Below, piece after piece: positions 1,959-60,463 of a stretch of DNA of 60,947 bases (position 1 is its first letter; each line of letters starts with the position of its first letter). Location: positions 1 to 60,947 of IMG/VR virus record IMGVR_UViG_3300028908_000010. One strand, 5' to 3'. This stretch comes from a virus. Its lineage: Duplodnaviria; Caudoviricetes. The translations under genes were made by a program, and so were the position numbers. Under the pieces are notes generated by a model that saw only the letters and a program-made list of their open reading frames with translations, had not been told where the DNA came from and made no database searches.

Positions 1959-2148
1959 TGGAGCTATCAAGAGAAAGGGAGCATTAAGAGAAAAAGCTAA
2001 AAGGGCTGGTGCTATAAGTAAGGATGGAACTATAAAAAAATCATGGATAAGGGAGCAAGCTAAAAAAGGAAGCAGTTTGGTTGCTCGAGAAGCCCGACTT
2101 GCTTTGACATTAGGTAAACTTAAAAAGAAAAAGAAGAAGAAAAAATGA
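1930..2148 (+). CDS. Small basic phage protein (KNWISGAIKRKGALR type)
   Basis: Lys/Arg-rich, GAGGAG SD upstream of 1930. Confidence 0.7.
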   Translation: MSRKKKNWISGAIKRKGALREKAKRAGAISKDGTIKKSWIREQAKKGSSLVAREARLALTLGKLKKKKKKKK

Positions 2149-2159
2149 AAACGTTTTCA
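2146..2159. promoter_or_regulatory. Dispersed palindrome TGAAAACGTTTTCA
   Basis: Exact copy; its TGA is the stop of the upstream ORF and it lies just before the thyA SD. Confidence 0.85.
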
Positions 2160-2175
2160 CTTGAAAGGAGGATAT

Positions 2176-2832: not shown

Positions 2833-3013
2833 TTATCTAAATCTTTTTCAAGGGTATGGTCTTTTTAGTCCTTATGGATATGTTATAAGAGAACAGGCAG
2901 AGATTAAAGAATCAGTTTTCAATGAAGTTCTGGAACGATTATATAATAAAATGGAAGAGTCTCTAAAGGAGGAAGAGAAAGTAAAAACTATGAGGAGAAA
3001 AGTATGGTGGTGA
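2825..3013 (+). CDS. Hypothetical protein ending RRKVWW
   Basis: Overlaps the thyA stop and the methylase start. Confidence 0.6.
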   Translation: MRNYLNLFQGYGLFSPYGYVIREQAEIKESVFNEVLERLYNKMEESLKEEEKVKTMRRKVWW

Positions 3014-3903: not shown

Positions 3904-4085
3904 TTATGGAAAATACAAAGACAAATGAAGGTAAGCAAAAAGAGAACTCTGATTATGATAAAAAAAGTTATGATGATTTAATAAAAGAAGCTCTTTCGCT
4001 TATACGAGTATTATTTTATTTGGATTGAAATGGACATAGACATACTCAGGCAAGAAGTAAAAAAATAAAACATGGAGGGAGGAGT

Positions 4086-4439: not shown

Positions 4440-4441
4440 CA

Positions 4442-4777: not shown

Positions 4778-4789
4778 GGAGTTCTTATT

Positions 4790-5260: not shown

Positions 5261-5381
5261 AGTGTTGATTTTATACTTATATTAAGTGAGTTAAATCCTT
5301 ACTGGGAGTAATAGGTATTATGAAACGTCTTATAACATGGCTCAGGTTGCTTATATGTAAGTTGTTAGGGGTGAATAGCTT

Positions 5382-5633: not shown

Positions 5634-5635
5634 AA

Positions 5636-6254: not shown

Positions 6255-6261
6255 AATAAAT

Positions 6262-6651: not shown

Positions 6652-6671
6652 AAGTGAAAACGTTTTCACTT
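6652..6671. promoter_or_regulatory. Dispersed palindrome, 20-bp extended form
   Basis: AAGTGAAAACGTTTTCACTT in convergent intergenic region. Confidence 0.85.
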
Positions 6672-8150: not shown

Positions 8151-8164
8151 TGAAAACGTTTTCA
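8151..8164. promoter_or_regulatory. Dispersed palindrome TGAAAACGTTTTCA
   Basis: Exact copy about 15 bp upstream of an early -35 box. Confidence 0.85.
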
Positions 8165-10052: not shown

Positions 10053-10066
10053 TGAAAACGTTTTCA
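10053..10066. promoter_or_regulatory. Dispersed palindrome TGAAAACGTTTTCA
   Basis: Exact copy, intergenic, next to a GC hairpin. Confidence 0.85.
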
Positions 10067-11514: not shown

Positions 11515-11874
11515 CTATGCTATTGTAAAAAATCTAAATTTTGCTTTCTTGACCTCTTCGTCTGTAAACTCCCTTGTCTCGTCTGGCCTAAATTGTGGAA
11601 TGATTGCAAATACCCAATCTCCGTCTCCCATTTCAATCTTAACCCTATTGAAAATGTTTTCAGGCATAGCCTTAGATATGAAATCTGGCATCCTTCGTCT
11701 AATAATATTAGCCGTATTCTTATGTCCGATGGCAGGGACAATCTCATTATTTGTAGTATTAACGTTGAACATCTCCGCCCAGAACACGGCCTCATCTACC
11801 TCCTGAACTACCACCACTGAGTCCCCTCTCATCATAGATGGGGAAAATGTTGTTGTGATAAAAATTTTGGCCAT
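11515..11874 (-). CDS. acrIII-1: AcrIII-1 / DUF1874 (STIV B116-like) cA4 ring nuclease, anti-type III CRISPR
   Basis: FSPSM, AIGHxxTA, NR, GD, R and EE motifs in family order; 119 aa. Confidence 0.8.
   Translation of the reverse strand: MAKIFITTTFSPSMMRGDSVVVVQEVDEAVFWAEMFNVNTTNNEIVPAIGHKNTANIIRRRMPDFISKAMPENIFNRVKIEMGDGDWVFAIIPQFRPDETREFTDEEVKKAKFRFFTIA
11649..11662. promoter_or_regulatory. Palindrome variant TGAAAATGTTTTCA
   Basis: One mismatch, inside the acrIII-1 gene. Confidence 0.6.
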
Positions 11875-13326: not shown

Positions 13327-13355
13327 ATTTTATTGATCTTCAAAATTTGAGTCAA
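13327..13355 (-). promoter_or_regulatory. Promoter for the early operon, inside the terS 3' end
   Basis: TTGACT-17-TAAAAT. Confidence 0.7.
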
Positions 13356-13812
13356 ATTGGGAGTTAACAGGGTAGGGTTGGTTATCTTCTTGGTTGGATA
13401 AACCTAATACGTTAAAGATAAAAGTTTGAGGAGCAGATTGTTCGTGGAGAAATCCGCCCATCTTTGCCAAAGTATTTAATGCACTTACTTTTACATTATC
13501 ACTTGTATCTTTACTTTCTACAAGTGACTTTAGTTTTAAAACAATGTAGTTTCTGTCAATTTCACCAAGCTGGGCAATTCTCTTTTGCAAATATTCAATA
13601 TATCTTTTTACAATTGGATCTCTTAGAAGGGACATTGCTTTTTGCTGAGCATATTTTTTGGGATACCCAGCTTTTACAGCACTTCTGTAAGGTCTCCTTT
13701 CTTTGGCATAGTAGTGGCAGAATTTCCTTATTCTCGTGGAGAGTTGGTCGAAACCATCCAGCTCTTCATCAGTGAACTCCTTTGGTTCTGGCAAATAATA
13801 TTCGGAATCCAT
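13330..13812 (-). CDS. terS: Terminase small subunit (Terminase_2-like)
   Basis: FCHYY...SAVKAGY...A.SLLRDP.V..YI...KVSALNTLAK. Confidence 0.85.
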   Translation of the reverse strand: MDSEYYLPEPKEFTDEELDGFDQLSTRIRKFCHYYAKERRPYRSAVKAGYPKKYAQQKAMSLLRDPIVKRYIEYLQKRIAQLGEIDRNYIVLKLKSLVESKDTSDNVKVSALNTLAKMGGFLHEQSAPQTFIFNVLGLSNQEDNQPYPVNSQFDSNFEDQ

Positions 13813-13818: not shown

Positions 13819-13847
13819 AATTTAGCAAAAAATGAAAATATTTTCAA
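13819..13847 (-). promoter_or_regulatory. Leaderless promoter of terS overlapped by palindrome variant TGAAAATATTTTCA (13833-13846)
   Basis: TTGAAA-17-TAAATT with extended TG, 6 nt before ATG, no SD. Confidence 0.6.
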
Positions 13848-14436: not shown

Positions 14437-15042
14437 GTGGCAAAGAAGAAAAAAATAGAAACAAAGAAAACAGTCAAAATCAATGTAAGGGAGGAAATAA
14501 AACGCCTTCTCTATGAGATAGACGAAAAGAGATATGATCTCTATCTCAAAATCCACGAGGTAAAAAGAGACCAAAAGTATATAGAATGGGGATTTGATAA
14601 TTTTAAGGAATGGATAGAAAAAGACCTTAATCTTGAGTATAGAATTGGTCTGTGGTATGCCCAAATGGGGGAAACCATAGACAAATTCAATATTCCCAAG
14701 AGTGTTGTATTATCTGTCTCTTGGACTAAGTTCAAGGAAATTGCACAATTGGACAATTGGGAGCAGATAGAGCCTCTCCTAAAGAAAGCCACTGGTATGA
14801 CTTTTAAAGAAATTCAGGCAGAAGTAAAACAAATAAAAAGAAACATTGCTTCCAAGGAAGCTACTCTTACAACTCTTACTCTCAAATTAAAGGAAGACCA
14901 ATATGATATAGTAATGCAAGCTATAGAAAGAGCAAAAGAAGAGACTGGAACAGAGAGCATTGGGTCTGCTATTGAGTATATATGCCAAGAATACCTCATA
15001 GGAGGAGCAGAAAGTGACATCTTCAACTTTGAAGAAGAATAA
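14437..15042 (+). CDS. Putative DNA-binding protein (PF49/DUF3102-like helical domain plus RHH-like C-terminus)
   Basis: KYIEWGFDNFKEWIEKDL...WY pattern; C-terminal strand-helix-helix TLTLKL...IVMQAIERAK...SAIEYICQEYL. Confidence 0.55.
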   Translation: MAKKKKIETKKTVKINVREEIKRLLYEIDEKRYDLYLKIHEVKRDQKYIEWGFDNFKEWIEKDLNLEYRIGLWYAQMGETIDKFNIPKSVVLSVSWTKFKEIAQLDNWEQIEPLLKKATGMTFKEIQAEVKQIKRNIASKEATLTTLTLKLKEDQYDIVMQAIERAKEETGTESIGSAIEYICQEYLIGGAESDIFNFEEE

Positions 15043-17027: not shown

Positions 17028-18548
17028 ATGTTAGAATTACTTATAAGAAGTCAATGTAATGTTATAGTATTGAATACTATTGAGACTGATCGGGCATTTA
17101 GATATGTCTCTGATCAGGTAAATATTTTAAACCAGAAATTGTCAGAGATGCAGGTAAAGCCAGAAGGGTTGGAAGATGGATATGAAGTATTAGTGTGGAA
17201 TCCTATAGATGGGATAGGAGGGGGACAATATTCTAACTACATAGATATACTCAGATCAGTATTGGATGCCCCTCGCCCGACTGTTTATTTTCTATCCAAT
17301 TACCACTTCTTTATAAGGGAGCAGTTTAATCTACCTGCTATATTACATTACATTAAAGAAATATCCAAACAAGAACGATTTGTCCATGTGGTTCTACAGG
17401 GAGAATTTAATCTTCCAGCAGAGATAGCTCAATACTGCCAAATGATTGATATTCCTCTTCCTTCTAAGGAGGAAATCTTTGAAATTCTTTCCAATATAAA
17501 TGAAGCGGAGGGATTCAATATTAAAAAATCGTCATTGCAGAGATCTGCTGAATACCTTAGTGGGCTCACCCAATCAGAAGTTGAAATGATATTCAGAACT
17601 GCAATTGCTCAGAAGAAAGGAAAGGTTGACCCAGACCTGCTTCAAAAGTTAAAGGCTGAAAAAGTAAAGAAAGAAGGGCTAATTGAATATATTGCTCCCA
17701 ATGAGACTATGAATGATCTTGGAGGATTAGGTAACTTGAGAGAATGGGCATTAATGGTTGCAAAGGTGTTTACACATAGGGAGGAAGCGATTAGGAAGAA
17801 AGTTCCTGTTCCTAAAGGAATGCTCCTTGCAGGAGTCCCAGGAACAGGTAAGACTCTCTCCTGTAAGATAATAGCTAACCTGTTCAAAGTGCCCTTGCTT
17901 AGAGTTGATATTGGAAAACTGTTTGCCAGCAGGCTTGGAGAAACAGAATCCAATACACGTAAAGTCTTAAAAGAGATAGAAGCCCAAGCTCCTGCTGTTG
18001 TCATGATAGATGAAGCTGAAAAAGCATTCAGTGGGTTGGGATCTTCTGATATGACTGATGCTGGAACTACTGCAAGAGTAATTTCTTCGTTTCTCTACTT
18101 CATGCAGGAAAATAATGCTCCATTATTCTTTGCTTTCACTGTGAATAATGTTCTTGCCCTTCCTCCAGAACTTGAGAGGAGAGGAAGAATAGATGAATTA
18201 TGGTTTGTGGATCTTCCCTCGCAACAAGAAAGAATGGAGATTATTAAGGTTCATCTAAAGAAACTGGGGCTGGATGTGAAAACATTTTCACTACAAAAGA
18301 TAATAGAAAAGACAAAATCCTTTACTGGGGCAGAAATTGAAACAATAATTAAACAGGCAAAATTAAAAGCTTTCTATGAAGACAGAAAGACAAACACTAA
18401 AGACATTTGTGAGATGGCCGAAAAGACTGTTCCTCTTGCTGTTAGCAGGAGGGAAGAAATAGAAGCTATTAGAGAGTGGGGGAAAACCAGAGCAAGATTA
18501 GCAAACAGTGTAATAAAACAGGAATTTGTAAAAAGAACAATATTTTAA
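17028..18548 (+). CDS. Ycf46/SpoVK-type AAA+ ATPase (degenerate N-terminal plus active C-terminal AAA domain)
   Basis: DLGGL, GVPGTGKT, MIDEAEK, LPPELERRGRIDE, FTGAEIE. Confidence 0.9.
   Translation: MLELLIRSQCNVIVLNTIETDRAFRYVSDQVNILNQKLSEMQVKPEGLEDGYEVLVWNPIDGIGGGQYSNYIDILRSVLDAPRPTVYFLSNYHFFIREQFNLPAILHYIKEISKQERFVHVVLQGEFNLPAEIAQYCQMIDIPLPSKEEIFEILSNINEAEGFNIKKSSLQRSAEYLSGLTQSEVEMIFRTAIAQKKGKVDPDLLQKLKAEKVKKEGLIEYIAPNETMNDLGGLGNLREWALMVAKVFTHREEAIRKKVPVPKGMLLAGVPGTGKTLSCKIIANLFKVPLLRVDIGKLFASRLGETESNTRKVLKEIEAQAPAVVMIDEAEKAFSGLGSSDMTDAGTTARVISSFLYFMQENNAPLFFAFTVNNVLALPPELERRGRIDELWFVDLPSQQERMEIIKVHLKKLGLDVKTFSLQKIIEKTKSFTGAEIETIIKQAKLKAFYEDRKTNTKDICEMAEKTVPLAVSRREEIEAIREWGKTRARLANSVIKQEFVKRTIF
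18277..18290. promoter_or_regulatory. Palindrome variant TGAAAACATTTTCA
   Basis: Inside the AAA gene, flanked G...C. Confidence 0.65.
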
Positions 18549-21087: not shown

Positions 21088-21989
21088 ACCTTTACATCAA
21101 ATTGCTAAATCATTTGGGAATAAATCAGATAAGAGAAAGAGAAAATGGAAACTGGATTACTACTTCTTGCCCATTTGCAAGATGGACACATGATAAAGGA
21201 AAAGACGAACATCCTTCTTTCGGGATAAATCTTAGTAATGGAGTTTTCAATTGCTTTGCATGTGGTATAAAAGGGCATGTAAGCAGAATCTACCATATAT
21301 GGAAGAATGTTACAGGAATAGATGACCCTTCTCTCAAGGAATATGCTGACCCAGATAATTTTATTCCAAGATTGTTTAAGAATATTGCTCCCCGTTCTCC
21401 TCGATATGTTTCTTCTATTCCCTTTCCTTTTTATACTGGAAATATGTTCTCTAAATTAACAGTGAAAACGTTTTCACTGAGGTATGATCCTCGTGAAAGA
21501 AGGATAGTAATTCCTATACGTTATTACAATAACAGAGTTGTGGCTTTGAAAGGACGCTATGTAGGAAAAGATCCTAATGCTCTTAGATATAGATTCTATA
21601 AAGAGTGTGGAGGCACAATGCCTCATGGACTGGGAATATGGTTTGGGTATCATCTTCCAATAGATTCCACTTCTCCTCTCATATTGGTAGAAGGAGAGAG
21701 GAATCTATTAAAGTTATGGGATGAGGGTTTTACAAACGTATGGGCAAGTGGTGGTGCAGAAATAAGTAATGCTCAACTTAGAACCCTCAGAACCTGCGAG
21801 GCAAAGAAGATGATACTATTCATGGACAATGATAAAGGAGGTGAGACAGCAACAAAAAGAATTGTTAATAGACTACGTGGTTTTATAACCTTCTACAAGG
21901 TTAGAAATTATTATGGACTTAATGACCCTGCTGAGATAATAGAGCAGGGGATACTTAAAAAGGCACTAAGATCAGCAAAAAAAATCTAA
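21036..21989 (+). CDS. DNA primase (Zn finger plus TOPRIM)
   Basis: CPF..H...PSF...FNCFACG; LVEGE; MDNDKGG. Confidence 0.9.
   Translation: MAYQQGGNYMGKTYRDINLYIKLLNHLGINQIRERENGNWITTSCPFARWTHDKGKDEHPSFGINLSNGVFNCFACGIKGHVSRIYHIWKNVTGIDDPSLKEYADPDNFIPRLFKNIAPRSPRYVSSIPFPFYTGNMFSKLTVKTFSLRYDPRERRIVIPIRYYNNRVVALKGRYVGKDPNALRYRFYKECGGTMPHGLGIWFGYHLPIDSTSPLILVEGERNLLKLWDEGFTNVWASGGAEISNAQLRTLRTCEAKKMILFMDNDKGGETATKRIVNRLRGFITFYKVRNYYGLNDPAEIIEQGILKKALRSAKKI
21460..21479. promoter_or_regulatory. Dispersed palindrome, 20-bp extended form
   Basis: CAGTGAAAACGTTTTCACTG inside the primase gene. Confidence 0.85.
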
Positions 21990-26169: not shown

Positions 26170-26947
26170 CTTCTATGAAAATCTGCAAAAAGAATTTACC
26201 AACAAAAGAAGGGAGAGCAAACATTTTCATGTTTCAGACCTTCCTACAATATGTCCAAGAGCAGTGGGTTACGCACGCAAATATAACGTCTCTTTCAGAC
26301 AGAAGAAAAAACTTGTAAGACCAATGGTTCTTGCTTTTGCTTATGGTATAGCAATTCAGAAACTGTTTTCCAGATATAGTTCTTATCTCATAAGCAAATA
26401 CAGATGCCCAAAATGTGGAACAACATATTATCTGAGCTATGAAAACTGGAAGGATATAAAATGCAAGCCTGAGTATTTATACCTTGATGAATATGCGATT
26501 AAACTTGAATCAGATAATTTTAAACTGGTAGGACATATTGACTCTCTCTATAGAGAATATAATAAAGTATATATTGCAGAGATTAAATCAATTTCTGCTA
26601 AACAATTTGAGGAATTGAAAGAACCTCTGTTTGACCATGTCATGCAAGTAGTTACATACTTGTGGATGTTCAATAGAAAAAAAGTAAAAGTAGATAAAGG
26701 ATTGAAAAGATATGACATTCAAAGAGATAAAGCTTTTGTATTGTATTTTAAAAAAGATTTCCAGAATTTTGATGTGAAAAAGTTTTCAGTGGGAAAGAAT
26801 GAATATAATCTAGAAAATAGGATTAAAGAATTGTTGACTCAACTATTGAATGCCAATGAGGAATCACCAAAGGTATGTTCCTCTAAGTTGTCACCTAATG
26901 CAAGGCATTGTCAGTTTAGAGAAATATGTTTTAGAAAGGAGGAATGA
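26150..26947 (+). CDS. Cas4-like PD-(D/E)XK exonuclease
   Basis: S....CPR, GHID, EIKS, Q...Y, C-terminal C...C.F...C. Confidence 0.8.
   Translation: MIQIVNNFYENLQKEFTNKRRESKHFHVSDLPTICPRAVGYARKYNVSFRQKKKLVRPMVLAFAYGIAIQKLFSRYSSYLISKYRCPKCGTTYYLSYENWKDIKCKPEYLYLDEYAIKLESDNFKLVGHIDSLYREYNKVYIAEIKSISAKQFEELKEPLFDHVMQVVTYLWMFNRKKVKVDKGLKRYDIQRDKAFVLYFKKDFQNFDVKKFSVGKNEYNLENRIKELLTQLLNANEESPKVCSSKLSPNARHCQFREICFRKEE
26775..26788. promoter_or_regulatory. Palindrome variant TGAAAAAGTTTTCA
   Basis: One mismatch, inside the nuclease gene. Confidence 0.45.
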
Positions 26948-39916: not shown

Positions 39917-41755
39917 CTAAGCATTCGTTATTAACTCATACAGTCCATTAGAAACTGCATCTATTGATGTATGTAAGCCATTTGAGAGAGATGCCAATGG
40001 ACTAAATGCCAACATGGACACTCTTTCAGAAAAATTATCTATCATATTCTGGCTTGCCCGTATATAGGAAGTATGTCGCAATGCTTTCTGTATAAAAGTA
40101 TTGTATGCGTTTAGTAATAATCGAGACCTTTCTGTATTCAGCCTGACTGCAAGTCGGTATTTTGCAAGCTCCTGATCCAGCCATTTATTGAATTCATATC
40201 TGAATCGCATAATATCTGTTTCAAGTAAAGAAGTATGCAGATCTTGGACATCTTTTAACAATGATGCTTTTTCTGTTGTGTATCCCTGCTTTAGTCTTTC
40301 TACGTCCATATCCAGCCTACCCTCTTCTATTATAGAAGATAATTTCTCTCTACGCAAATTATAAAGCTGTTTAGCATTATTAACTGCCCTTGAAAATAAT
40401 TCTATTTTAGCTTGATTCAGAGAAAGTCTATTTTTGGATATAGACACTTGTGATTCTGCATTAGCTACACGAGCCTCAAAAGACCTGACATCCTCAGAAT
40501 ACTTAGAAACTATAGATTTAAGAATATTCATTTGTTCAAGATACATCTGCCAACGACTATCATTTTTAGAAAGAACAGTATCAATATATTGGAGATTTGT
40601 GTTCGCCTTCTGCAAGATTAATTTATAGTAATTAGACATGGTATCTTTATATAGAGTATTATAAGTAACAACCATAGTAGAGAGAGTTTCCCACAATCCT
40701 GCCAGCAAAATCTCTTTTTCGTATAACCTTGATAACTCCATAAACATCTTTCCAAGATAGAGCATTACATAATTCTGAGAAACATCCCACAAGGATAGCA
40801 CTGTAGAAACAAGAGTTTCCTCAAATTTATCAAGCTCCGATTCAAGATCTATTATTAATTTCTTCAATTGGTCTTCTTTATCTCTATCAGTGAAAACATT
40901 TTCACTAAAGAAATCTTCAGATACCTGACCATCAAGGAGGTTTTTAGCCTGATTATACAATTTGCTGAGTTTACTCTTTAGAGATTGGGGAGCACCTTCC
41001 AAAAACCTAAGATACACAGGATCAACATGGGTTTTAACCTTTTCATTTAAAATGAAATTCATTTTATCTTGAGCCTGACGGGATCGCTCATAAGGAGATT
41101 GAGTCTTCAACAAATTGATCAAAGTCAAATATAAAGTAACAATTTCGTCTATCCTTGATCTATGACCAATAATCAATTTCTGAAGGTAGAACTGATAATT
41201 CAAATTATTGTTTAAGATATTTTCGATTTCATCGAATAAAGGTTTAGCTTCCAACTCAGAAATCCCCACAAGATCTTTCATTTGAAAAGGAATAGAAAAC
41301 ATAGCAGGAGCATCCACATTATCAAATTCGGGAATGGTTACGTTATCAGGTATATTCAATGAAGGAGTATCTATATTTTGTAGAGATTCTGGAATCCCAG
41401 GAATAGGAATATCTTGTAAAGTCTGAGAAACCGAATCCAAACTGGGAGGATCAATAACAATATCTTGGATAAGAGAATCTATTTCTTCTATATATTTAGT
41501 AATATCAAAATTCTTGATTTCTCTCTCTGGGAGAGTTTCTTCTGGGATTTCATCTATCCCTGAAACAGAATGCTCTTTTGGGAGATCAGGAACAGGAAGA
41601 GGCTGGTTTGCAAAATCTGGGGGAGAAGATGCAGTAATAATAAGATCTCCTCGATTTCTCACTTCTTCCACAAATCGAGCAATACTGTTAGTCGTATTTT
41701 GGGATTCTGCAAGAATTGTGTCTATTCTTTTGCTTATCATATCAGTTACATCCAT
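39917..41755 (-). CDS. Putative virion protein (Pro/acidic N-region, coiled-coil)
   Basis: 612 aa, architecture like the neighbouring 650-aa protein. Confidence 0.55.
   Translation of the reverse strand: MDVTDMISKRIDTILAESQNTTNSIARFVEEVRNRGDLIITASSPPDFANQPLPVPDLPKEHSVSGIDEIPEETLPEREIKNFDITKYIEEIDSLIQDIVIDPPSLDSVSQTLQDIPIPGIPESLQNIDTPSLNIPDNVTIPEFDNVDAPAMFSIPFQMKDLVGISELEAKPLFDEIENILNNNLNYQFYLQKLIIGHRSRIDEIVTLYLTLINLLKTQSPYERSRQAQDKMNFILNEKVKTHVDPVYLRFLEGAPQSLKSKLSKLYNQAKNLLDGQVSEDFFSENVFTDRDKEDQLKKLIIDLESELDKFEETLVSTVLSLWDVSQNYVMLYLGKMFMELSRLYEKEILLAGLWETLSTMVVTYNTLYKDTMSNYYKLILQKANTNLQYIDTVLSKNDSRWQMYLEQMNILKSIVSKYSEDVRSFEARVANAESQVSISKNRLSLNQAKIELFSRAVNNAKQLYNLRREKLSSIIEEGRLDMDVERLKQGYTTEKASLLKDVQDLHTSLLETDIMRFRYEFNKWLDQELAKYRLAVRLNTERSRLLLNAYNTFIQKALRHTSYIRASQNMIDNFSERVSMLAFSPLASLSNGLHTSIDAVSNGLYELITNA
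40891..40904. promoter_or_regulatory. Palindrome variant TGAAAACATTTTCA
   Basis: Flanked AG...CT, intragenic. Confidence 0.65.
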
Positions 41756-43707
41756 TACTGCTCCTCCATAATTCTATTAGTAATGGATACTATTGTGTGG
41801 GCAGAAGACAGAACCCCTCGAATCTGCTTCTCATAATAATCTCCCAGAGTATTGTATTTGGTAGATTCTTTACTTAAACGATTATGCAAGTGCATTAGAG
41901 CAAGATCAAATGCTCTTTCTGTATCATAAAGAATTTTTCTCATCATAAGCCTATAATCATAACTTTCTGATTCTATTCTATTTCCCAGTAGAGAGAGCCA
42001 TGTCCCTCTGATCCGTTGCTCTCCTTCAGCTTCAACAGCAAATTTTGATAGTTGAGCCTTCAAATTAGAAATTTGAGTCAACAGATCAGAATATGGTTGG
42101 CTAAATTTATATTTTCGTAATATGCTCTCAAGATAATTAACATAGAGTTGTAAAATCTGAAGTTTAGCACGTTGGGAGTTATTTATAAATCCAAGTTTTG
42201 ATTCCAGCAAATTCATACCAATAAAATCCTGCATAGAGGCAAGGACATCATTCTTGCTTTCTAACAAGACTTGATCATTCTTTATGGATTCAAACCTTGC
42301 CTGTTGTTGTAACACTGCCCCTTTCAATTGGTAAAGACGAACATTTAACAAATCCTGATTTAGTTTTCCCGATAGTCTTCTAATATCCTGAACAAATAAT
42401 CTCATCTTTTCTTGTATATGTTTCAATTCAAGAATGAAAGTTTCTTTGTCCAGAATTTGCTTCTCAAGAGAGAATGCTTGGTTACTAATCCACTGCTGTA
42501 TATATGCTTTACAAGCAGTTAATTCAGTCTTAGCCAATCCAATTGCAGTTCGCAATTTCTCAAGATTAAGTCTAATAGTCTTATCAACTGCATTTAATCT
42601 TTCGCCAATTTGTTTAATCTGAAAATTATATAGACGTGTAGTCATATCCACAAGAGAATAGTAGGATACAAGAATGTAAGAAGAGAGAGCCTTATATAAC
42701 TCTGTTTTATTTTCCACCATCTTCCAAACCCGCTCTCCATAAGTCCTTAAAATCTTTGTCTTTTGTTGGGCAAGTTCAGCTTCATTCTGGATTCTATGAA
42801 CAGTAATATCATAGAAAGTCCTGCCATCCATTACATCATCAGAAAACCCACGATTCCAGCTATCCCCCATAATAGCATCAAGTTCCCTTTCCATCTTGAG
42901 AGTCTTCAAATAAGAAATGGGAGCAACCCGAACTATTTGGTCAGAAAAATCAGCAAGAGCCTTAACAAATTCTTCAGAAAAAACATAGGAATCAAGAGAT
43001 TCTCCTCTGAAAACGTTTTCAATTTGAGAAAGATTAATCTCCTTTAAAAAAGGGGTTAATATGCCTTTCGTTTCTTCCCAGCGACTCAAATCCTTCATAA
43101 AGGGAATAGAAGAAAAGTTGAAGTCAAAATCAGTAGAAACTTCTATACTTTGAGACATATCATTAAGATAGCCCTGCACCACCTCGAACATAGATGTTAT
43201 GTATTGTAATAATTCCTGGATACTGTATCTTTCTTTAGAAACTTGTTTTTCTTCAAAAGAAGAAATGATAGGAACTGCTATTTCTAGAATAGAAGGTAAT
43301 GAAGGAATATTCAACAAAGAAACATCTGGGTAAGAAGGAGAATTTATATCTGTATCTATATTATAAGATCCACTGGATTCAATTGAAGGAATATCTGGGA
43401 GTTGACTGGAAATGGAATCAAATAGAGTATCTATAGCCTGCCTCAAAGAAGTTATCATGGATTTATAATCTTCAGTTTGTGTCTTGAAATCTGGCAAATC
43501 CTGATCCATCCAAGGCAGATTCTTGAGTTCATTTAAAGTGTCAGAAAAATGCTCATACCATGAAATTTGATCGTCCTCTTCTGGAAAGGTAAAATTGTCT
43601 ATGAGAGTCTGATTTACTCCTTCAGCAAAGGACATCACATCCTGGCTGAGGGTAGATATATTGTTAGTTATAGTATTATAGTAAGCCACTAACTCTTCTA
43701 CTGTCAT
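41755..43707 (-). CDS. Putative virion protein (Pro/acidic N-region, coiled-coil)
   Basis: 650 aa, structural operon. Confidence 0.55.
   Translation of the reverse strand: MTVEELVAYYNTITNNISTLSQDVMSFAEGVNQTLIDNFTFPEEDDQISWYEHFSDTLNELKNLPWMDQDLPDFKTQTEDYKSMITSLRQAIDTLFDSISSQLPDIPSIESSGSYNIDTDINSPSYPDVSLLNIPSLPSILEIAVPIISSFEEKQVSKERYSIQELLQYITSMFEVVQGYLNDMSQSIEVSTDFDFNFSSIPFMKDLSRWEETKGILTPFLKEINLSQIENVFRGESLDSYVFSEEFVKALADFSDQIVRVAPISYLKTLKMERELDAIMGDSWNRGFSDDVMDGRTFYDITVHRIQNEAELAQQKTKILRTYGERVWKMVENKTELYKALSSYILVSYYSLVDMTTRLYNFQIKQIGERLNAVDKTIRLNLEKLRTAIGLAKTELTACKAYIQQWISNQAFSLEKQILDKETFILELKHIQEKMRLFVQDIRRLSGKLNQDLLNVRLYQLKGAVLQQQARFESIKNDQVLLESKNDVLASMQDFIGMNLLESKLGFINNSQRAKLQILQLYVNYLESILRKYKFSQPYSDLLTQISNLKAQLSKFAVEAEGEQRIRGTWLSLLGNRIESESYDYRLMMRKILYDTERAFDLALMHLHNRLSKESTKYNTLGDYYEKQIRGVLSSAHTIVSITNRIMEEQ
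43008..43021. promoter_or_regulatory. Dispersed palindrome TGAAAACGTTTTCA
   Basis: Exact copy, intragenic. Confidence 0.85.
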
Positions 43708-49454: not shown

Positions 49455-49474
49455 AAATGAAAACGTTTTCATTT
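49455..49474. promoter_or_regulatory. Dispersed palindrome, 20-bp extended form
   Basis: AAATGAAAACGTTTTCATTT; supplies a stop codon and abuts the next SD. Confidence 0.85.
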
Positions 49475-56785: not shown

Positions 56786-57012
56786 TATACTTTAACCTCC
56801 GTTGATTTATGTAAGGGTTCTTCAAAAAAATCATGTAGAAAAATCATATAAGAATGGGAAATGCCTCTCAAAAAATGTAACCTCGACGAATCCTCACAAG
56901 AAATCATTTTAACAAGAGATAAATATAATTTATCTTCAATATATTTTTTCATTCCTTCATACAATCTTGGATTAGCCTTCAATGCTTGTTTCAATGCTCT
57001 AATATCTGTCAT
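56785..57012 (-). CDS. Small protein downstream of portal
   Basis: Coupled to the portal gene. Confidence 0.6.
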   Translation of the reverse strand: MTDIRALKQALKANPRLYEGMKKYIEDKLYLSLVKMISCEDSSRLHFLRGISHSYMIFLHDFFEEPLHKSTEVKV

Positions 57013-59018
57013 CGTCCATTCTCCCTCAAAAATCTTGAAACATCTATACCTTTCTGAACTGCCTCATTTTGGACACTATTTAAAGGACTTTTTGTTTGGG
57101 TAGGTTGCCCTATCTGCATCTGTTCAAGAATTGGTTTAATCAATTCCTGTATCTCATCAGAATAGCCAAAAATCCTATCTGGGTCTATACCTATGGATTT
57201 AGCAATAGTGCCTAATAAATATTTCCTTCCCTCCACACCAACCAATTGTTGGTCAATCGGATTGGAGACTATTCTCAATAATTCGAGTGCTCTTGTAGCT
57301 TCCATCTCCCTTTCAGCAAGGGATAATGTTCCTTTAGTTCTTATCTTCAAATCTGGAATCTCAGAAAGTTTAGATTTGGGAACTAATGTATAATACATTC
57401 TGGAAACAACTGGATTTATAATACCTGAATCAATATTACGTAAAACTGCCTTGATACCTCGTGTAGCATTGGTAGTAAGCATTGACAGCCCACTTGCGGT
57501 CCTACCTGCACCACCAACAGTGATGTCACCATGAGCATAGGCTGGTATTCCAGAAGTTTCATCAGCCATCTTCATGTAGTAAGTCATAACAATAGCTAAC
57601 CTATCTGCAACCAATTGTATATTATTAAATCTATAAGCAGGAGCTTCACTCATCGCTGATTCATGAGTATCATACATATGCCAAGGAATTATAGCTTTGG
57701 GTTCATTGTCAGAAATTCTATCAATATTACGTTCTATTAACGGACCAGAAGCTAAAACAGAATTTACCACAATGGCACGAGCCATTGCATTTACTGAATC
57801 CTGAATAGAACTTATCACTTCTGGTAGAGCTATTCCCCAGAAGGAGTAGGGTAAAGATATAAATGACGCCTTTGCATATGGTTTTAATCCAAGTGGGTCT
57901 TCATTTAATACAGCTTTCAAAACCATATTTTCTATCATCCAAATAGTAGTCTCATAATACTTATTTGGGTCATTAACTGACAAACCATAATCTTGAAGAA
58001 GTTTTCCTTTTACTGACCCCCAAAATTCAAGAACATCAATATAAGGATAGTCTGCCTCCGATGCACCTTCATTTTCCTCAAGGGAATCAACTGTCGCAGT
58101 ATAAGAAAGATGATGGAATCTATATCCCTGGTCATATCTATCTAAAACATCATCAATTACATCAGAGTTATAACCAGGTAGACCTTTGAGTTTATATAAA
58201 TCTTGAGGTAGAAGATTCAAAACCTCAATAACGTAGTCCTCAAACCCAGTTGCATAAGGAGAAGGATATATATTAAAAGGAGACACAACTTTAAATTTAT
58301 ATACTTCCTTATCCTTAGGTTCAAGACCTAAATTAGTTCTTACATATCCTTTTTCTTTTGAAAGAATACCTCCTTTAATTATAGCTGTAGGAAATATAGA
58401 AATATCTACACATAGAGAAGAAAGTGCCTCATGAAACCCACCTTCGATTAATACATCATCAAGTTTCTTTTTAAAGCCCTCTGCTAATTTTTTTGAGTAT
58501 TTTTCTATTTCTATTTTAAGTTCCTTTTCTGCTAAATCTTTAGCATCAATAACAAATGACTGTAAATCTTCAAAAGGCAAATATTTGGATATAGGAGCTA
58601 TAGCATCAAATACCTTGTGTGCAAGTATTTGTTGTATTTCCAATGGAAGGTCTGGAACAGGAGTAGTAGCTATATCATAAGGCAATGTTTCATCATGAAA
58701 TAGAACATCAACAAGCCATGCAGTCAATGCCCTGCATTTTATTGAAGTAAGAGGGATATATATCTCAGGAGCATCTATTTGTTTTAATTCATGTAATTTT
58801 TCATCTGAATATTGTGATTTAAATCTTTGCATACAATCTATTAAACGTTCTTCTATAGGTTGCTTTGCCCGTTTAGCTTCATCAAATTTTGACAATACAT
58901 ACTGGGATAAATTTGCCATTGTCAAGTTAGTCATTGGTCTTAATTCTTCTGGAACTTCACCAGGCTCTGGACTTGGAAGTGCTGTAGGCATATTATCTAC
59001 TGGAATAAACTCTATCAA
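57009..59018 (-). CDS. Portal protein
   Basis: 669 aa after TerL; VLEFWG, FWG..LP, ADETSGIPAY.HG, TASGLSML. Confidence 0.88.
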   Translation of the reverse strand: MIEFIPVDNMPTALPSPEPGEVPEELRPMTNLTMANLSQYVLSKFDEAKRAKQPIEERLIDCMQRFKSQYSDEKLHELKQIDAPEIYIPLTSIKCRALTAWLVDVLFHDETLPYDIATTPVPDLPLEIQQILAHKVFDAIAPISKYLPFEDLQSFVIDAKDLAEKELKIEIEKYSKKLAEGFKKKLDDVLIEGGFHEALSSLCVDISIFPTAIIKGGILSKEKGYVRTNLGLEPKDKEVYKFKVVSPFNIYPSPYATGFEDYVIEVLNLLPQDLYKLKGLPGYNSDVIDDVLDRYDQGYRFHHLSYTATVDSLEENEGASEADYPYIDVLEFWGSVKGKLLQDYGLSVNDPNKYYETTIWMIENMVLKAVLNEDPLGLKPYAKASFISLPYSFWGIALPEVISSIQDSVNAMARAIVVNSVLASGPLIERNIDRISDNEPKAIIPWHMYDTHESAMSEAPAYRFNNIQLVADRLAIVMTYYMKMADETSGIPAYAHGDITVGGAGRTASGLSMLTTNATRGIKAVLRNIDSGIINPVVSRMYYTLVPKSKLSEIPDLKIRTKGTLSLAEREMEATRALELLRIVSNPIDQQLVGVEGRKYLLGTIAKSIGIDPDRIFGYSDEIQELIKPILEQMQIGQPTQTKSPLNSVQNEAVQKGIDVSRFLRENGR

Positions 59019-60463
59019 AACCCACCTCCTAACATAGTTATAGCATTTTGTCCTGATGAAGAAAAATCACTTTCTGATATATCATAAGTAGGTTTTCTAT
59101 ATCCCAATGCTCCATATTGAAGTGCATCTGCAACATGTGACCATTTATTCTTTTCTGGAACATTTGAATACATATCAGTCCCTACACTTATTCTTTTCAT
59201 TCTATACTTTCCCTTCATAGCCTGTCTAAGAACTTTACAAGTAGGGGATAATTGAAATGCTGGAGCTACTTCACTCCTACTTATATCCATTCCTAAAAGA
59301 TACTTGTTTACAGCATTTAATCTAATCTGAATTGAATTGGAATAAGCAGGATAAGCCTTCAAGCCAAGTTGAGATATAGCTTGAAAAACAGACCTACCAT
59401 CAATTTGTGACCGTGCCTTCCCAGCAGGGTCACCAATAATAACAAAACTTTTGAATTTATAAGCTTCATTCTCCTCTATAAATGGCAGGACAAAATATTT
59501 AATAAATTCAATTACGTCTATTGGCTCTTCAGCAACAAGTTCATCAAGAACAAGTAATCTTCTTGGAGGCTTTTGGATAAAAACACATGCAGGAGTGAGA
59601 CCAAAATCCATACCTAATATTAAGGAAAGTCCAGGTAGTGGAGCTAATGGAGTTTTAGAACAGTGAATTTTATCATCATACATTGAAAATACAGGTTTTC
59701 CAGATTTTACAGACCCATACAGTCCATGAACATAAACATCTATCCACTCAGGGTCTTTACCAACACATAGGTCTTCATAATAATTTTCAGGAAGATTAGA
59801 GACATTCTCAGCATAGGGAGATAATCCAGAAGGTTGATGAAAAATCTCAGCCTTTTCAGGTCTATTTTCCTCAAAATACTTATAAAACCAATGATCATCG
59901 TCTGGAGGGTTTGTATCCAGAAGAATTCCTATCCATGTTGGTCCATAAATTATATTTCCATTTTCATCTCTTATAGTTGGTGGATACCTAAGTCGTCCTT
60001 CAATTGTATCAAATATTTCTTTGTGGATTTCTTTTGCTTCGTTTAACCAGACAGCAGTTACTTCTAATGAATATAAATTAGCAACATGCTCTGGTCTGTC
60101 CAAAGCCCTTAACAACCATTCTGATTCAACTACTGTTCCATCTTTTAATCTCATTCTTAGGATATATTTACTTTCAGATTCTTTCCATTCTGCAAAGGGA
60201 AGCCAATAGTCAATAGTTTTCTTCGTTGTATCTTTCAACATTCTATAAGTATTTCTTACTATAGCAAAACGGGTTCTTCTAATTCCATGTGGGTCAGGTT
60301 GTTGTTCACATGCTATTTTTAGGAGGGTAATCACACAACCAGAAGATTTACCAGAACCAAAAGGACCAACAATTGCACGAATTTTCTTTTTTGAAAGATA
60401 GAATTTCTTTATTGTAGGAACATCATTGAAATTAAAAGGTTGTTTTAATGAAAACGTTTTCAC
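59015..60463 (-). CDS. terL: Terminase large subunit
   Basis: GPFGSGKS, NEA, DTNPP, GMDFGLTPA, GDPAG, SHVADALQY. Confidence 0.95.
   Translation of the reverse strand: MKTFSLKQPFNFNDVPTIKKFYLSKKKIRAIVGPFGSGKSSGCVITLLKIACEQQPDPHGIRRTRFAIVRNTYRMLKDTTKKTIDYWLPFAEWKESESKYILRMRLKDGTVVESEWLLRALDRPEHVANLYSLEVTAVWLNEAKEIHKEIFDTIEGRLRYPPTIRDENGNIIYGPTWIGILLDTNPPDDDHWFYKYFEENRPEKAEIFHQPSGLSPYAENVSNLPENYYEDLCVGKDPEWIDVYVHGLYGSVKSGKPVFSMYDDKIHCSKTPLAPLPGLSLILGMDFGLTPACVFIQKPPRRLLVLDELVAEEPIDVIEFIKYFVLPFIEENEAYKFKSFVIIGDPAGKARSQIDGRSVFQAISQLGLKAYPAYSNSIQIRLNAVNKYLLGMDISRSEVAPAFQLSPTCKVLRQAMKGKYRMKRISVGTDMYSNVPEKNKWSHVADALQYGALGYRKPTYDISESDFSSSGQNAITMLGGGF
60449..60462. promoter_or_regulatory. Dispersed palindrome TGAAAACGTTTTCA over the terL start
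   Basis: Exact copy; GTG AAA ACG TTT TCA are the first terL codons. Confidence 0.85.

What the first reader, a model, noticed from the sequence alone, without database searches (positions are those of the whole stretch)
2146..60462. Genome-wide 14-bp palindrome TGAAAACGTTTTCA, many copies inside coding sequence
Seen: exact copies at 2146, 6655, 8151, 10053, 21463, 27918, 43008, 49458 and 60449, and centre variants at 11649, 13833, 18277, 26775 and 40891. Three extend to 20-bp palindromes. A rough estimate at ~35% GC gives about 0.001 chance copies per genome. It forces KTFSL or ENVF peptides into unrelated proteins (AAA, primase, polymerase, TerL, virion proteins), so selection acts on the DNA. 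None was seen in the 9-kb giant gene. Established: it fits the LacI-family/CcpA cre consensus, but I see no LacI-type gene here. Inference: a dispersed-site system, either roadblock operators analogous to stoperators, host metabolic-regulator sites that gate the phage, or centromere/genome-organising sites for a phage protein.
Basis: partly seen in the sequence, partly recalled or inferred. Interest (0 to 1): 0.88.

Follow-up and report, generated by a model that had tools for sequence, protein, structure and literature searches.

The report
Dispersed phage operator palindrome, likely self-encoded binder
A 14-base palindrome is scattered through this phage genome far beyond chance and recurs, in changed form, in related phages, so it looks like the binding site of a phage-made DNA-binding protein and not a borrowed host sugar-regulator site.

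Summary
There are 9 exact TGAAAACGTTTTCA copies and 5 centre variants at the stated coordinates, against 0 expected, and the excess survives a codon-preserving shuffle.

Of the 9 exact copies, 5 are intergenic, 1 covers the TerL start codon and 3 lie inside genes.

The same palindrome is multi-copy (5-25 exact copies) in five related virus genomes. Across 105 sites the outer 12 bases are invariant. Only the central dinucleotide varies (CG, then TG/CA, then TA).

A relative with 55% GC instead carries TCCAAACGTTTGGA 12 times.

All these phages encode a conserved 201-aa protein (window 14437-15042). Its model resembles the ParB/Noc/KorB DNA-binding domain and has a ribbon-helix-helix-like tail. 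More distant phages with homologues carry their own 6-N2-6 palindromes (TGCAAT..ATTGCA, TTAAAT..ATTTAA), often just upstream of -35 boxes.

I found no LacI-type gene in five of the motif-bearing phages, nor in the one candidate host MAG. That MAG has no copy of the site outside the phage contig.

Best reading: dispersed operators of a phage-encoded dimeric binder that acts as a global regulator or roadblock, comparable to KorB-OB or the Cluster O repeats. Binding itself is not shown, and the identity of the binder is only moderately supported.

The parts
2146..2159 (.). Exact site, intergenic. Its TGA is the stop codon of gene 1915-2148. It lies 16 nt before the AGGAGG-ATG of the thymidylate-synthase-like gene (2176-2832).
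6655..6668 (.). Exact site (20-bp palindrome) in the 454-bp convergent gap between the + early block and the - block.
8151..8164 (.). Exact site, intergenic in the - block, 15 nt upstream of a TTGATT-N18-TATGAT promoter-like box (8135-8106, - strand).
10053..10066 (.). Exact site, intergenic between two - strand genes.
11649..11662 (.). Centre variant TGAAAATGTTTTCA inside ORF 11515-11874 (-), which carries a STIV_B116-like domain.
13833..13846 (.). Centre variant TGAAAATATTTTCA in the divergent control region. On the - strand it lies 12 nt after a TTGCCT-N17-TAATAA box and 21 nt before the start of the TerS-like gene. Exact sites occupy the same place in G004, G005, G008/G011 and G009.
18277..18290 (.). 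Centre variant (CA) inside the AAA+ ATPase gene 17004-18548.
21463..21476 (.). Exact site (20-bp palindrome) inside the primase gene, encoding VKTFSL between the Zn-finger and TOPRIM parts. G009 has a site at the same position.
26775..26788 (.). Centre variant (AG) inside the Cas4-like exonuclease gene 26087-26947.
27918..27931 (.). Exact site inside the PolA gene (MKTFSL). G000, G004, G005 and G009 all have it at the same codons, with no synonymous change, while flanking codons vary.
40891..40904 (.). Centre variant (CA) inside the 612-aa virion-block gene 39917-41755 (-).
43008..43021 (.). Exact site inside the 650-aa virion-block gene 41755-43707 (-), in the ENVF frame.
49458..49471 (.). 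Exact site (20-bp palindrome), intergenic. Its TGA is the stop codon of gene 49469-50170 (-). It lies 14 nt before the GGAGG-ATG of gene 48646-49443 (-). The junction site is conserved in G004, G005 and G009.
60449..60462 (.). Exact site covering the GTG start codon and codons 2-5 of TerL (59015-60463, -). A 22-codon upstream ORF ends in the site's TGA (GTGA overlap).
14437..15042 (+). Candidate binder, 201 aa. Residues ~14-137 model as a ParB/Noc/KorB-type DNA-binding-domain-like fold, and the C-terminus is ribbon-helix-helix-like. It matches no Pfam family.
13330..13812 (-). TerS-like HTH gene (Terminase_2). It is the first gene of the - block, and its promoter-proximal region carries the conserved site. 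It is both a regulated target and a rival binder candidate.

Best explanation
The palindromes are dispersed operators for a dimeric, sequence-specific DNA-binding protein that the phage itself encodes.

The best candidate is the 201-aa product of 14437-15042, which sits in the early/replication operon. It has a ParB/KorB/Noc-like helix-turn-helix domain and a ribbon-helix-helix-like tail that probably mediates dimerisation.

I infer the following mechanism. Each monomer reads one RTGAAAA arm, and the central pyrimidine-purine step tolerates CG, TG/CA or TA. Once made, the protein occupies sites at three kinds of place: just downstream of a promoter (the TerS-like operon), just upstream of promoters (8151, and the five-site hub in G005), and in the short gaps between cistrons or inside long genes. 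In this way it tunes or blocks host-RNA-polymerase transcription across the whole genome. This would be a KorB-OB-like or stoperator-like global switch without strand orientation.

Shown here: the statistical excess, DNA-level conservation, invariant arms, independent half-site flanks, the positions of the sites, co-occurrence with the protein family, and lineage-specific variants of the motif.

Inferred, not shown: that this protein binds the site, that it is a dimer, and the direction of any effect on transcription.
For: (1) Excess and DNA-level selection. In PolA the five motif codons are identical in 4 genomes although flanking synonymous positions differ.

(2) Recurrence in relatives. G004 has 14 exact sites, G005 13, G006 25, G008 5 and G009-C1 16. 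The reversed control pattern gives 0 at this stringency.

(3) Site spectrum. 105 sites have perfect outer 12 bases and only 5 have one outer mismatch. The centres are CG 82, TG/CA 14, TA 7 and other 2.

(4) Flanks prefer A at -2 and T at +2, and R at -1 and Y at +1, but show no pairing covariation: 27 Watson-Crick pairs seen against 26.4 expected, out of 82. That is how independent half-sites behave, not how a stem behaves.

(5) G010 (MCP 56% identical, GC 55%) has TCCAAACGTTTGGA 12 times plus one TG-centre variant, again often directly 5' of an SD.

(6) The 201-aa family is found in 8 of 8 motif-bearing records at least 79% complete. It is absent from 3 of 3 complete motif-less relatives (G001, G013, G014).

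(7) Of 15 further loci with homologues scanned, 11 have a 6-N2-6 dyad in 3 or more copies. These are TGCAAT-N2-ATTGCA (up to 27 in 20 kb), TTAAAT-N2-ATTTAA and GGAAAT-N2-ATTTCC. L243 has a near-palindrome. L251, L252 and the cultured Vibrio phage VHS1 have the half-site TAATTGCA enriched: 10 seen against 0.8 expected, 6 against 0.2, and 23 against 2.8. The 3 genomes without the protein have no such dyad.

(8) Promoter geometry in relatives. In L249, 15 of 27 sites are followed 5-9 nt later by a [CA]TTG -35-like box, against a random rate of 0.03. In VHS1 the figure is 5 of 23, each with a full TT[GT]ACN-N16-18-TANNNT. G005 has 5 sites within 136 bp just upstream of TTGACT-N16-TATATT.

(9) The site sits between the promoter and the start of the TerS-like gene in G000 (variant), G004, G005, G008/G011 and G009.

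(10) Fold. The model has pLDDT 79. The 12 best rows of the second look are all ParB/Spo0J/Noc DNA-binding domains, several solved on parS or NBS DNA, with Z 8.6-10.4, rmsd 2.3-4.9 and 96-118 residues aligned. KorB scores Z 6.9. In the independent wide search ParB-parS is rank 1 (Z 9.2) and KorB scores 6.6. RHH_1 matches 1 of 7 members at E = 5e-4.
Against: No binding test was possible.

The fold match is only moderate. Foldseek gave no row with E <= 0.001. The tool warns that Z below about 13 for helical proteins can reflect a common arrangement only. Raf1 scores Z 7.8, close to the ParB rows.

There is no sequence-level match to ParB, KorB or any other Pfam family, nor to PDB sequences.

The TGAAAA-class proteins are only 21-58% identical to the window's protein. 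No alignment column is shared by all six of them and absent from the other classes. On the protein tree the TGAAAA class falls in two places. This pattern would also fit a motif set by the host.

The whole replication module co-occurs with the motif, so phylogeny confounds the association. The AAA+ ATPase and the TerS-like HTH protein are alternative binders.

In the TGAAAA class, sites are not enriched near sigma-70-like boxes overall. 19 of 109 sites have a box just upstream against a random rate of 0.11 per position, and 7 of 109 have one just downstream against a random rate of 0.056.

33 of 82 sites sit directly 5' of an SD and start codon. An RNA-level role would also predict this.

Rhizobium phage RHph_TM16 has a homologue but no repeated motif in the 40 of 101 kb I examined.
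Confidence: 0.5

Rival explanations
1. Host LacI/GalR-family regulator sites (CcpA cre or similar). The phage would carry perfect-consensus operators so that a host metabolic regulator gates its genes, or is titrated by them.
For: The 14-mer is the core of the RegPrecise S. thermophilus cre consensus ATGAAAACGTTTTCAA (passage in PMC6090898).

All the motif classes found fit T-N-N-A-A-N-YR-N-T-T-N-N-A, which is the generic LacI-type operator layout (recalled).

The identical 14-mer occurs in phages whose candidate binder proteins share no class-specific residue and lie in two places on the tree. That is what a host-set motif would predict.
Against: No PF00356 match above cut-off in G000, G004, G005, G006 or G008.

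No PF00356 match in the Cloacimonadota-labelled MAG that holds the G009 phage contig. That MAG has 0 exact and 0 one-mismatch sites in its other ~1.94 Mb. Its 12 two-mismatch sites compare with 41 for the reversed control pattern over the whole MAG.

The absence of near-cognate sites (5 with one outer mismatch against 105 perfect) is unlike the degenerate cre regulon (recalled).

The TA-centred class (TGCAATTAATTGCA) lacks the CG step typical of LacI-family operators (recalled).

The host assignment rests on binning only, and the MAG may be incomplete.
Confidence: 0.12
2. An RNA-level element: a short hairpin or protein-recognised RNA motif next to ribosome-binding sites. It would work as a translational operator, a processing site or a 5' stabiliser.
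For: 33 of 82 exact sites are followed within about 30 nt by an SD plus start codon in the local direction of transcription. On the antisense side the figure is 1 of 82, and at random positions 5.9%.

Several sites overlap start codons (TerL in G000, the TerS-like gene in G004/G005) or supply the upstream stop codon.

Variation is confined to what would be the loop.

The 20-bp versions fold at -7.0 to -8.7 kcal/mol. For the two folded as 34-nt segments (6655 and 21463) z is -2.7 and -3.1. For 49458, folded in a 47-nt context at -7.4 kcal/mol, z is -1.5.
Against: The minimal 14-mer hairpin is weak, at -2.6 to -3.2 kcal/mol. It does not stand out from shuffles at 2146 or 60449, and it is not the minimum-energy fold at 2146.

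The flanking positions do not covary as a stem would.

In related systems the homologous motif lies upstream of -35 boxes, which is untranscribed DNA.

In VHS1 one arm is perfect and the other degenerate. That suits a protein binding DNA, not a hairpin.

Intergenic gaps here are so short that any intergenic element must abut the SD.
Confidence: 0.12
3. Operators of a different phage protein, for example the TerS-like HTH protein (13330-13812) whose own start region carries the site, or the N-terminal domain of the AAA+ ATPase (17004-18548).
For: The site lies at or just before the TerS-like gene start in G000 (variant), G004, G005, G008/G011 and G009. This is a classic auto-regulation layout.

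Terminase_2 has an N-terminal HTH (the domain's nature is recalled).

The AAA+ ATPase occurs in all 7 core motif genomes and in L243, L246, L247, L248 and VHS1.
Against: I found no TerS-like homologue in G006, which has 25 sites (tblastn at E <= 10 returned only chance-level hits). Its presumed recognition region differs among TGAAAA-class genomes.

The ATPase has only 2 class-specific columns, both in the C-terminal lid. It is a classical AAA protein by Pfam with no recognised DNA-binding domain.
Confidence: 0.15
4. A non-regulatory DNA feature, such as a target of a modification, nicking or recombination enzyme, or a spreading selfish repeat.
For: The all-or-none exactness resembles enzyme recognition.

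The centre decays as CG to TG/CA to TA, as methyl-cytosine deamination would give (the mechanism is recalled).

The genomes show strong restriction-site avoidance. In G009, ACGT is almost confined to the motif: 18 copies in total, 16 of them in the motif, against 201 expected.
Against: The N6_N4 methylase (3004-3903) has no homologue in the other motif genomes.

The sites are 14 bp only, with unrelated flanks, so there is no mobile unit.

Positions are conserved at orthologous junctions and codons.

Sites cluster before promoters in relatives.
Confidence: 0.06

Closest known systems
KorB and its 12 OB operators on plasmid RK2 (ParB-family global repressor). The biology is recalled. The KorB DNA-binding-domain structures appear.
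   Same: A short palindrome in about a dozen dispersed copies. Some copies sit next to promoters, some lie far from any promoter or inside genes. A ParB-type HTH protein encoded by the same replicon binds them and sets a global transcription programme.
   Different: KorB has an N-terminal CTPase/ParB domain and works with KorA/IncC. The 201-aa protein starts at the DNA-binding domain and has a ribbon-helix-helix-like tail, and I found no ParA-like partner. There is no sequence similarity. The fold match to KorB is only Z 6.2-6.9.
ParB-parS and Noc-NBS (chromosomal 14-16-bp palindromes, many inside genes). The biology is recalled. The structures appear.
   Same: Exact palindromes of 14-16 bp with a central CG step, scattered and often intragenic. 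They are read by a helical HTH domain, which is the best structural match of the candidate protein (Z 8.6-10.4).
   Different: Those proteins segregate or position chromosomes using CTP-dependent spreading. Here there is no CTPase domain and no ParA. The element is an apparently lytic phage: no integrase or repressor turned up among the roughly 68 of 81 ORFs scanned.
17-bp dyad repeats of Cluster O mycobacteriophages such as Corndog (PMC4351075; I read the passages from the abstract, results and discussion shown).
   Same: More than 30 copies spread throughout the genome. The inverted arms are invariant and the centre varies. About one third lie inside coding regions. Most are not tied to predicted promoters. 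[quoted passage not shown] The authors predict a dimeric DNA-binding protein and state that the function is unknown.
   Different: A different sequence and geometry (7-N3-7, TGTTCGG..CCGAACA) in a different phage lineage. No binder was proposed, and no variation of the motif between lineages was described there.
Stoperators of Cluster A mycobacteriophages (PMC9283540 and PMC6550527; I saw only the search listing and the start of the abstracts).
   Same: Many repressor-binding sites distributed across the phage genome, mostly in short intergenic gaps, which stop transcription elongation.
   Different: According to the passage in PMC4351075, stoperators are asymmetric and oriented with transcription. 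According to the PMC9283540 abstract, a monomeric immunity repressor of temperate phages binds them. The sites here are perfect palindromes.
CcpA cre / LacI-family operators (the consensus is quoted in PMC6090898).
   Same: The 14-mer is identical to the core of a published cre consensus, with the same T-G-N-A-A-N-C-G-N-T-T-N-C-A layout.
   Different: I found no LacI-type protein in the phages or the candidate host MAG. There is no host regulon of sites, no degeneracy, and relatives use other arms or a TA centre.

Membership tests
LacI/GalR-family operator (CcpA cre) | A 14-bp palindrome matching the TGNAANCGNTTNCA / cre consensus | tested here: met
   The sequence itself. The RegPrecise S. 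thermophilus consensus ATGAAAACGTTTTCAA is quoted in PMC6090898.
LacI/GalR-family operator (CcpA cre) | A LacI-family HTH regulator (PF00356) present in the phage or its host | tested here: not met
   0 of 5 phage records give a match above cut-off. 0 matches in MAG G009. Caveat: the host is assigned by binning only and the MAG may be incomplete.
LacI/GalR-family operator (CcpA cre) | A regulon of similar, degenerate sites in the host chromosome | tested here: not met
   G009 has 0 exact and 0 one-mismatch sites outside the phage contig. Its 12 two-mismatch sites compare with 41 for the reversed control pattern over the whole MAG. The phage sites show almost no degeneracy in the arms.
ParB/KorB/Noc site systems | Multi-copy dispersed palindromes of 13-16 bp, some of them intragenic | tested here: met
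ParB/KorB/Noc site systems | A cognate protein with a ParB-type HTH DNA-binding domain | tested here: inconclusive
   The fold match is Z 8.6-10.4 to ParB/Spo0J/Noc and 6.2-6.9 to KorB. Foldseek E-values are 0.29 or worse. There is no Pfam or PDB sequence match. The tool warns that such Z values can arise for helical proteins by chance.
ParB/KorB/Noc site systems | An N-terminal ParB/Srx CTPase domain | tested here: not met
   The model aligns only to the DNA-binding domain of ParB chains (chain residues ~110-230, model residues ~8-137). The protein is 201 aa, with a disordered 14-residue N-terminus. No ParBc domain was found by Pfam.
ParB/KorB/Noc site systems | A partner ParA-type ATPase or KorA-like co-repressor | tested here: not met
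   No ParA-like hit among about 68 of the 81 crude ORFs scanned with Pfam or PHROGs. The remaining small ORFs were not scanned.
Cluster A stoperators | An asymmetric site oriented with transcription | tested here: not met
   The site is a perfect palindrome.
Cluster A stoperators | Bound by the immunity repressor of a temperate phage | not testable with these tools
   No integrase or repressor family was found in the scans listed above. Binding cannot be tested here.
Cluster O-type dispersed dyad repeats | Invariant inverted arms, a variable centre, about one third in CDS, and mostly not at promoters | tested here: met
   compared with the passages of PMC4351075. The sequence and arm length differ, so this is an analogue and not the same repeat.

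The most novel reading that the evidence does not exclude
A widespread and so far unnamed family of phage proteins may give each phage lineage its own 14-bp 'self-mark' palindrome (6-N2-6 with a central YR step). The proteins combine a ParB-like DNA-binding domain with a ribbon-helix-helix-like tail, and longer members carry histone-H1-like tails. The palindrome would be written dozens of times across the genome, even through coding sequence.

The protein would use these marks to tell phage DNA from host DNA and to organise or gate the whole genome's expression.

The system ranges from uncultured phages (one of them binned with a Cloacimonadota MAG) to cultured Vibrio phages such as VHS1. It could also explain orphan dyad repeats such as those of the Cluster O mycobacteriophages.
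Probability: 0.3. Interest if true: 0.8.

Novelty: new variant of a known kind. Interest (0 to 1): 0.66.

Why it matters
Dispersed, exact dyad repeats have been seen in a few phage groups and left unexplained. The Cluster O authors state that their function is unknown (PMC4351075).

This case does three things:
- It links such repeats to a concrete, conserved candidate binder.
- It shows that the repeat changes its sequence but keeps its geometry between lineages.
- It finds the same system in cultured Vibrio phages, where it can be tested at the bench.

If the pairing holds, it defines a new family of phage global regulators or genome organisers. It also gives a set of naturally orthogonal protein-operator pairs.

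It is a caution as well. A perfect match to a host regulator consensus (cre) can be coincidental.

Tried and rejected
- Megablast of 8 kb of the window against cultured phages found nothing.
- The TerL-based relative G001 (GC 62%) has no motif and was of little use as a contrast, because it shares only 3 proteins with the window by BLAST.
- No tRNA genes.
- Homodimer prediction for the 201-aa protein gave 'no answer': score 0.39 against a mark of 0.42. I do not count this for or against.
- Foldseek against the PDB gave no row with E <= 0.001.
- A profile of 20 family members against PDB sequences gave only chance-level rows.
- Pfam on 20 members gave no shared family.
- The ESM Atlas gave only unnamed viral clusters. 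'ParB HTH' and 'DUF3102' appeared as sub-threshold leads at 0.83-0.84.
- A search for specificity-determining residues found none, either in the 201-aa family (0 class-specific columns) or in the AAA+ ATPase (2, both in the lid).
- A crude sigma-70 scan found no overall promoter association for the TGAAAA class.
- A first, too strict regex for promoters after class-5 sites found few. I replaced it after reading the sequences.
- Literature searches: the exact 14-mer gave 1 paper, on the cre consensus. The other motifs gave 3 irrelevant papers. 'Bacteriophage genome / palindrome / ParB-like / dispersed' gave 3 irrelevant papers. For VHS1 I saw the listing only and opened no paper.
- I considered and rejected the following. 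N4-type hairpin promoters: a 6-bp stem with a 2-nt loop is not feasible, and the sites are genome-wide. Intrinsic terminators: AU-rich and weak. LexA, ArgR, CRP/FNR, Rex and CodY boxes: spacing or arm mismatches, judged from recalled consensus sequences only.

Full report
**What the window is.** The window is a complete virus record (G000, 60,947 bp). Bases 10-135 repeat at 60822-60947. It has four strand blocks:
- A + early block (1-6531) with a thymidylate-synthase-like gene and an N6/N4 DNA methylase.
- A - block of mostly unknown genes (6985-13812) that begins with a Terminase_2/TerS-like HTH gene.
- A + replication block (13905-30142) with an AAA+ ATPase, DnaB, primase, helicase, UvsX-like recombinase, Cas4-like exonuclease and PolA.
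- A - virion block (30129-60934) with a 2962-aa ORF, portal and TerL.

I found no integrase, repressor, ParA or LacI-type protein among about 68 of 81 crude ORFs scanned. No tRNA genes were found.

- TGAAAACGTTTTCA occurs 9 times exactly, at the stated coordinates. None of 100 shuffles gave any copy.
- Five more copies differ only in the central dinucleotide.
- The i.i.d. expectation is 0.0007.
- Three copies are 20-bp palindromes.
- None lies in the giant gene.
In 300 codon-preserving shuffles the in-CDS count averages 0.03 (maximum 1), against 3 observed. With a YR centre it averages 0.16 against 6 observed.

One correction is needed. Reading the frames, 5 of the 9 exact copies are intergenic, 1 covers the TerL GTG start, and 3 are interior to genes. 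With about 4-10% non-coding DNA, 5 or more intergenic copies out of 9 has P of about 9e-4 at p = 0.10.

**The motif is a lineage trait.** A scan of IMG/VR for the 14-mer found several records with many copies. Exact counts are G004 14, G005 13, G006 25, G007 6 and G008 5, and the reversed control pattern gave 0.
- G004 (its 80-137 kb part) and G005/G007 share 30-80% identical proteins with the window.
- G006 and G008 are more distant (capsid 46-55% identical).
- A 60-kb contig in a MAG titled Candidatus Cloacimonadota (capsid 77% identical) has 16 exact copies.
- Among 20 further capsid relatives, 5 carry the motif and 15 do not. Many of those records are fragments.

Some positions are orthologous. 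One is the same codons of PolA in four genomes, where the five motif codons never vary while flanking synonymous positions do. Another is the junction before the 265-aa virion gene.

**Anatomy of the site.** I pooled six genomes and found the following.
- 105 sites have perfect outer 12 bases, and only 5 have a single outer mismatch.
- The centres are CG 82, TG/CA 14, TA 7, AG 1 and TT 1.
- Flanks favour A at -2 and T at +2 (about 70%), and R at -1 and Y at +1.
- The -1/+1 pair shows no Watson-Crick covariation: 27 pairs seen against 26.4 expected, out of 82.
- As RNA, the bare 14-mer hairpin is weak (-2.6 to -3.2 kcal/mol). Only the 20-bp versions reach -7.0 to -8.7 kcal/mol.

Independent half-site preferences, invariant arms and heterogeneous stability together point to a symmetric protein on duplex DNA, not to a structural hairpin.

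**Where the sites sit.**
- 33 of 82 exact sites are followed within about 30 nt by an SD and a start codon in the direction of transcription. The antisense side has 1 of 82, and random positions 5.9%.
- The site's TGA often serves as the upstream stop codon.
- A site lies between a good promoter and the start of the TerS-like gene in G000 (TA variant, 13833), G004, G005, G008/G011 and G009.
- At 8151 the site is 15 nt upstream of one of three TTGATT-N18-TATGAT boxes.
- G005 has five sites within 136 bp just before TTGACT-N16-TATATT.
- Overall, however, the TGAAAA-class sites are not enriched next to sigma-70-like boxes. The same was reported for the Cluster O repeats.

**The cre reading.** The 14-mer is the core of a published cre consensus. 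Four results count against a host LacI-type binder:
- PF00356 is not found above cut-off in five motif-bearing phages.
- It is not found in the candidate host MAG.
- The MAG's remaining ~1.94 Mb holds no exact or one-mismatch copy. Its 12 two-mismatch copies compare with 41 for the reversed control pattern over the whole MAG.
- The host label rests on binning alone, so this argues against, but does not exclude, a host factor.

**The motif changes with the lineage.** G010 (53 kb, GC 55%, capsid 56% identical) lacks TGAAAA..TTTTCA. Instead it carries TCCAAACGTTTGGA 12 times plus one TG-centre variant. The geometry is the same, the AAACGTTT core is the same, and the site is again often directly 5' of an SD, including before its giant gene. 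Complete relatives G001, G013 and G014 have no such dyad.

**A candidate binder.** Clustering the proteins of the motif genomes leaves few unknowns that are always present. The clearest is 14437-15042 (201 aa).
- A profile of it is found in 8 of 8 motif-bearing records that are at least 79% complete, and in none of the 3 complete motif-less relatives. Fragments G012 and G025 lack it, as expected for partial records.
- Its AlphaFold model (pLDDT 79) has a helical domain (residues ~14-137). In the second look, the 12 best matches are all ParB/Spo0J/Noc DNA-binding domains, several solved on parS or NBS DNA (Z 8.6-10.4). KorB scores 6.9, and SopB, P1 ParB and VirB score lower.
- In the independent wide search ParB-parS is again first (Z 9.2, rmsd 6.7). 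Raf1 follows at 7.8, Spo0J at 7.7 and KorB at 6.6.
- Foldseek E-values are 0.29 or worse, and the tool warns about helical proteins in this Z range. I therefore treat the fold as a moderate lead.
- The C-terminus reads as strand-helix-helix, and RHH_1 matches one of seven members (E = 5e-4).
- No Pfam family and no PDB sequence matches the family. Cultured-phage homologues are annotated as 'hypothetical' or 'putative ribonuclease E/G family protein'.

**Wider co-occurrence.** Searching IMG/VR with the family profile gave 23 loci. In the roughly 20 kb held for each new locus:
- TGCAAT-N2-ATTGCA occurs 4-27 times in L245, L248, L249, L250, L258, L259 and L261.
- TTAAAT-N2-ATTTAA occurs 3-4 times in L246 and L247.
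- GGAAAT-N2-ATTTCC occurs 3 times in L244.
- A near-palindrome TGAAAACGCTTTCA occurs 6-7 times in L243.
- L251 and L252 have the half-site TAATTGCA enriched: 10 copies against 0.8 expected, and 6 against 0.2.
- L256/L257 show nothing clear.
- The cultured Vibrio phage VHS1 has 23 TAATTGCA copies against 2.8 expected, each with a degenerate partner arm.
- Rhizobium phage RHph_TM16 shows none in 40 of its 101 kb.

In L249, 15 of 27 sites are followed 5-9 nt later by a -35-like box (random rate 0.03). This forms a repeated cassette of terminator, site, -35, -10, SD and gene. VHS1 shows the same layout at 5 of 23 sites. So in the sister systems the motif is plainly a promoter-proximal DNA element.

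**What weakens the pairing.** On the protein tree the TGAAAA class lies in two places. G000/G004/G005/G009/G006 form one group. G011 and L243 sit with G010 and L246/L247. No alignment column is shared by all six TGAAAA-class proteins and absent elsewhere. The AAA+ ATPase gives no signal either. Either specificity is read by residues that the alignment does not resolve, or another protein or a host factor sets the motif. The whole replication module co-occurs, so the association is confounded by descent.

**Verdict.** The finding is real and not ordinary. Its closest analogues are the following:
- KorB-OB. The biology is recalled.
- ParB-parS and Noc-NBS. The biology is recalled.
- Cluster A stoperators, of which I saw only the listing and abstracts.
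- Above all, the unexplained 17-bp dyad repeats of Cluster O mycobacteriophages (passages read).

I rate it a new variant of a known kind. The new elements are a concrete candidate protein family, lineage-specific versions of the motif, and cultured relatives in which it can be tested. My literature searches for the motifs found nothing relevant beyond the cre consensus.

Noticed in passing
window, whole genome; also G009 contig 1: Extreme avoidance of short palindromes in the window. GTAC occurs 0 times against 124 expected, CTAG 5 against 139, and CCGG, GCGC and CGCG 0 each. The CpG observed/expected ratio is 0.33. In G009, ACGT occurs 18 times against 201 expected, and 16 of those 18 lie inside the motif. 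This suggests heavy restriction pressure, and pressure on the motif centre in particular.
   Followed up: partly
window 809-826, 13898-13915, 18884-18901 (+): Three identical 18-bp boxes TTTTTACTTGACAAAAAT. Each supplies a TTGACA -35 followed 17 nt later by a -10-like hexamer, at the heads of + strand operons. They are probably strong early host-type promoters.
   Followed up: partly
window 9568, 8135, 7764 (- strand): Three near-identical ATTTGATT-N18-TATGATT promoter-like boxes, each about 20 nt before an AGGAGG-ATG in the - block.
   Followed up: no
window 10-135 and 60822-60947: A 126-bp identical terminal overlap. It is either a terminal repeat or an assembly wrap-around. A TTGACA-N17-TATATT box at 168-140 (-) would then drive the TerS-TerL operon across the junction.
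   Followed up: no
window 13330-13812 (-) and 60566-60934 (-): Two small-terminase-like candidates. One is a Terminase_2 protein at the head of the - block, far from TerL. The other is a 122-aa ORF with weak HTH hits directly upstream of TerL.
   Followed up: partly
window 27770-30142 (+): The PolA N-terminus reads GECPGREE...GKPFVGSSGRLL. From memory this looks like a family-4 uracil-DNA-glycosylase motif fused to the polymerase. I did not test this against a profile.
   Followed up: no
window 30129-39017 (-): The 2962-aa ORF has no Pfam family. Relatives carry homologues of 2309-2590 aa (G010: 2319 aa), and G006 has a 3980-aa ORF in the same block with no BLAST match to it. I did not test whether it is a virion RNA polymerase.
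   Followed up: no
window 11515-11874 (-): A small protein with a STIV_B116-like domain (E = 1.4e-8), a family known from archaeal viruses. It has no homologue in the related phages.
   Followed up: no
G004 (137 kb record): Only the 80-137 kb part is related to the window, and all 14 sites lie there. The record may be two genomes joined.
   Followed up: no
window 60463-60530 (-): A 22-codon ORF (MKRFLLWLKLKILKLFYSDFEL) ends in the site's TGA and overlaps the TerL GTG as GTGA. TerL has no SD, so translational coupling is possible.
   Followed up: no
G013; L244: Other repeated words in relatives. ACCCACTATACCGT occurs 5 times in G013. TTGACAAACGAA-type boxes occur 9 times in L244. These are probably lineage-specific promoters.
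   Followed up: no
L245, L249, L250, L252, L258, L261 homologues: The longer family members (370-430 aa) carry acidic and KKPAAKK-type low-complexity N-terminal extensions. One matches the histone-H1-like family HC2 (E = 5.7e-6; alignment).
   Followed up: no
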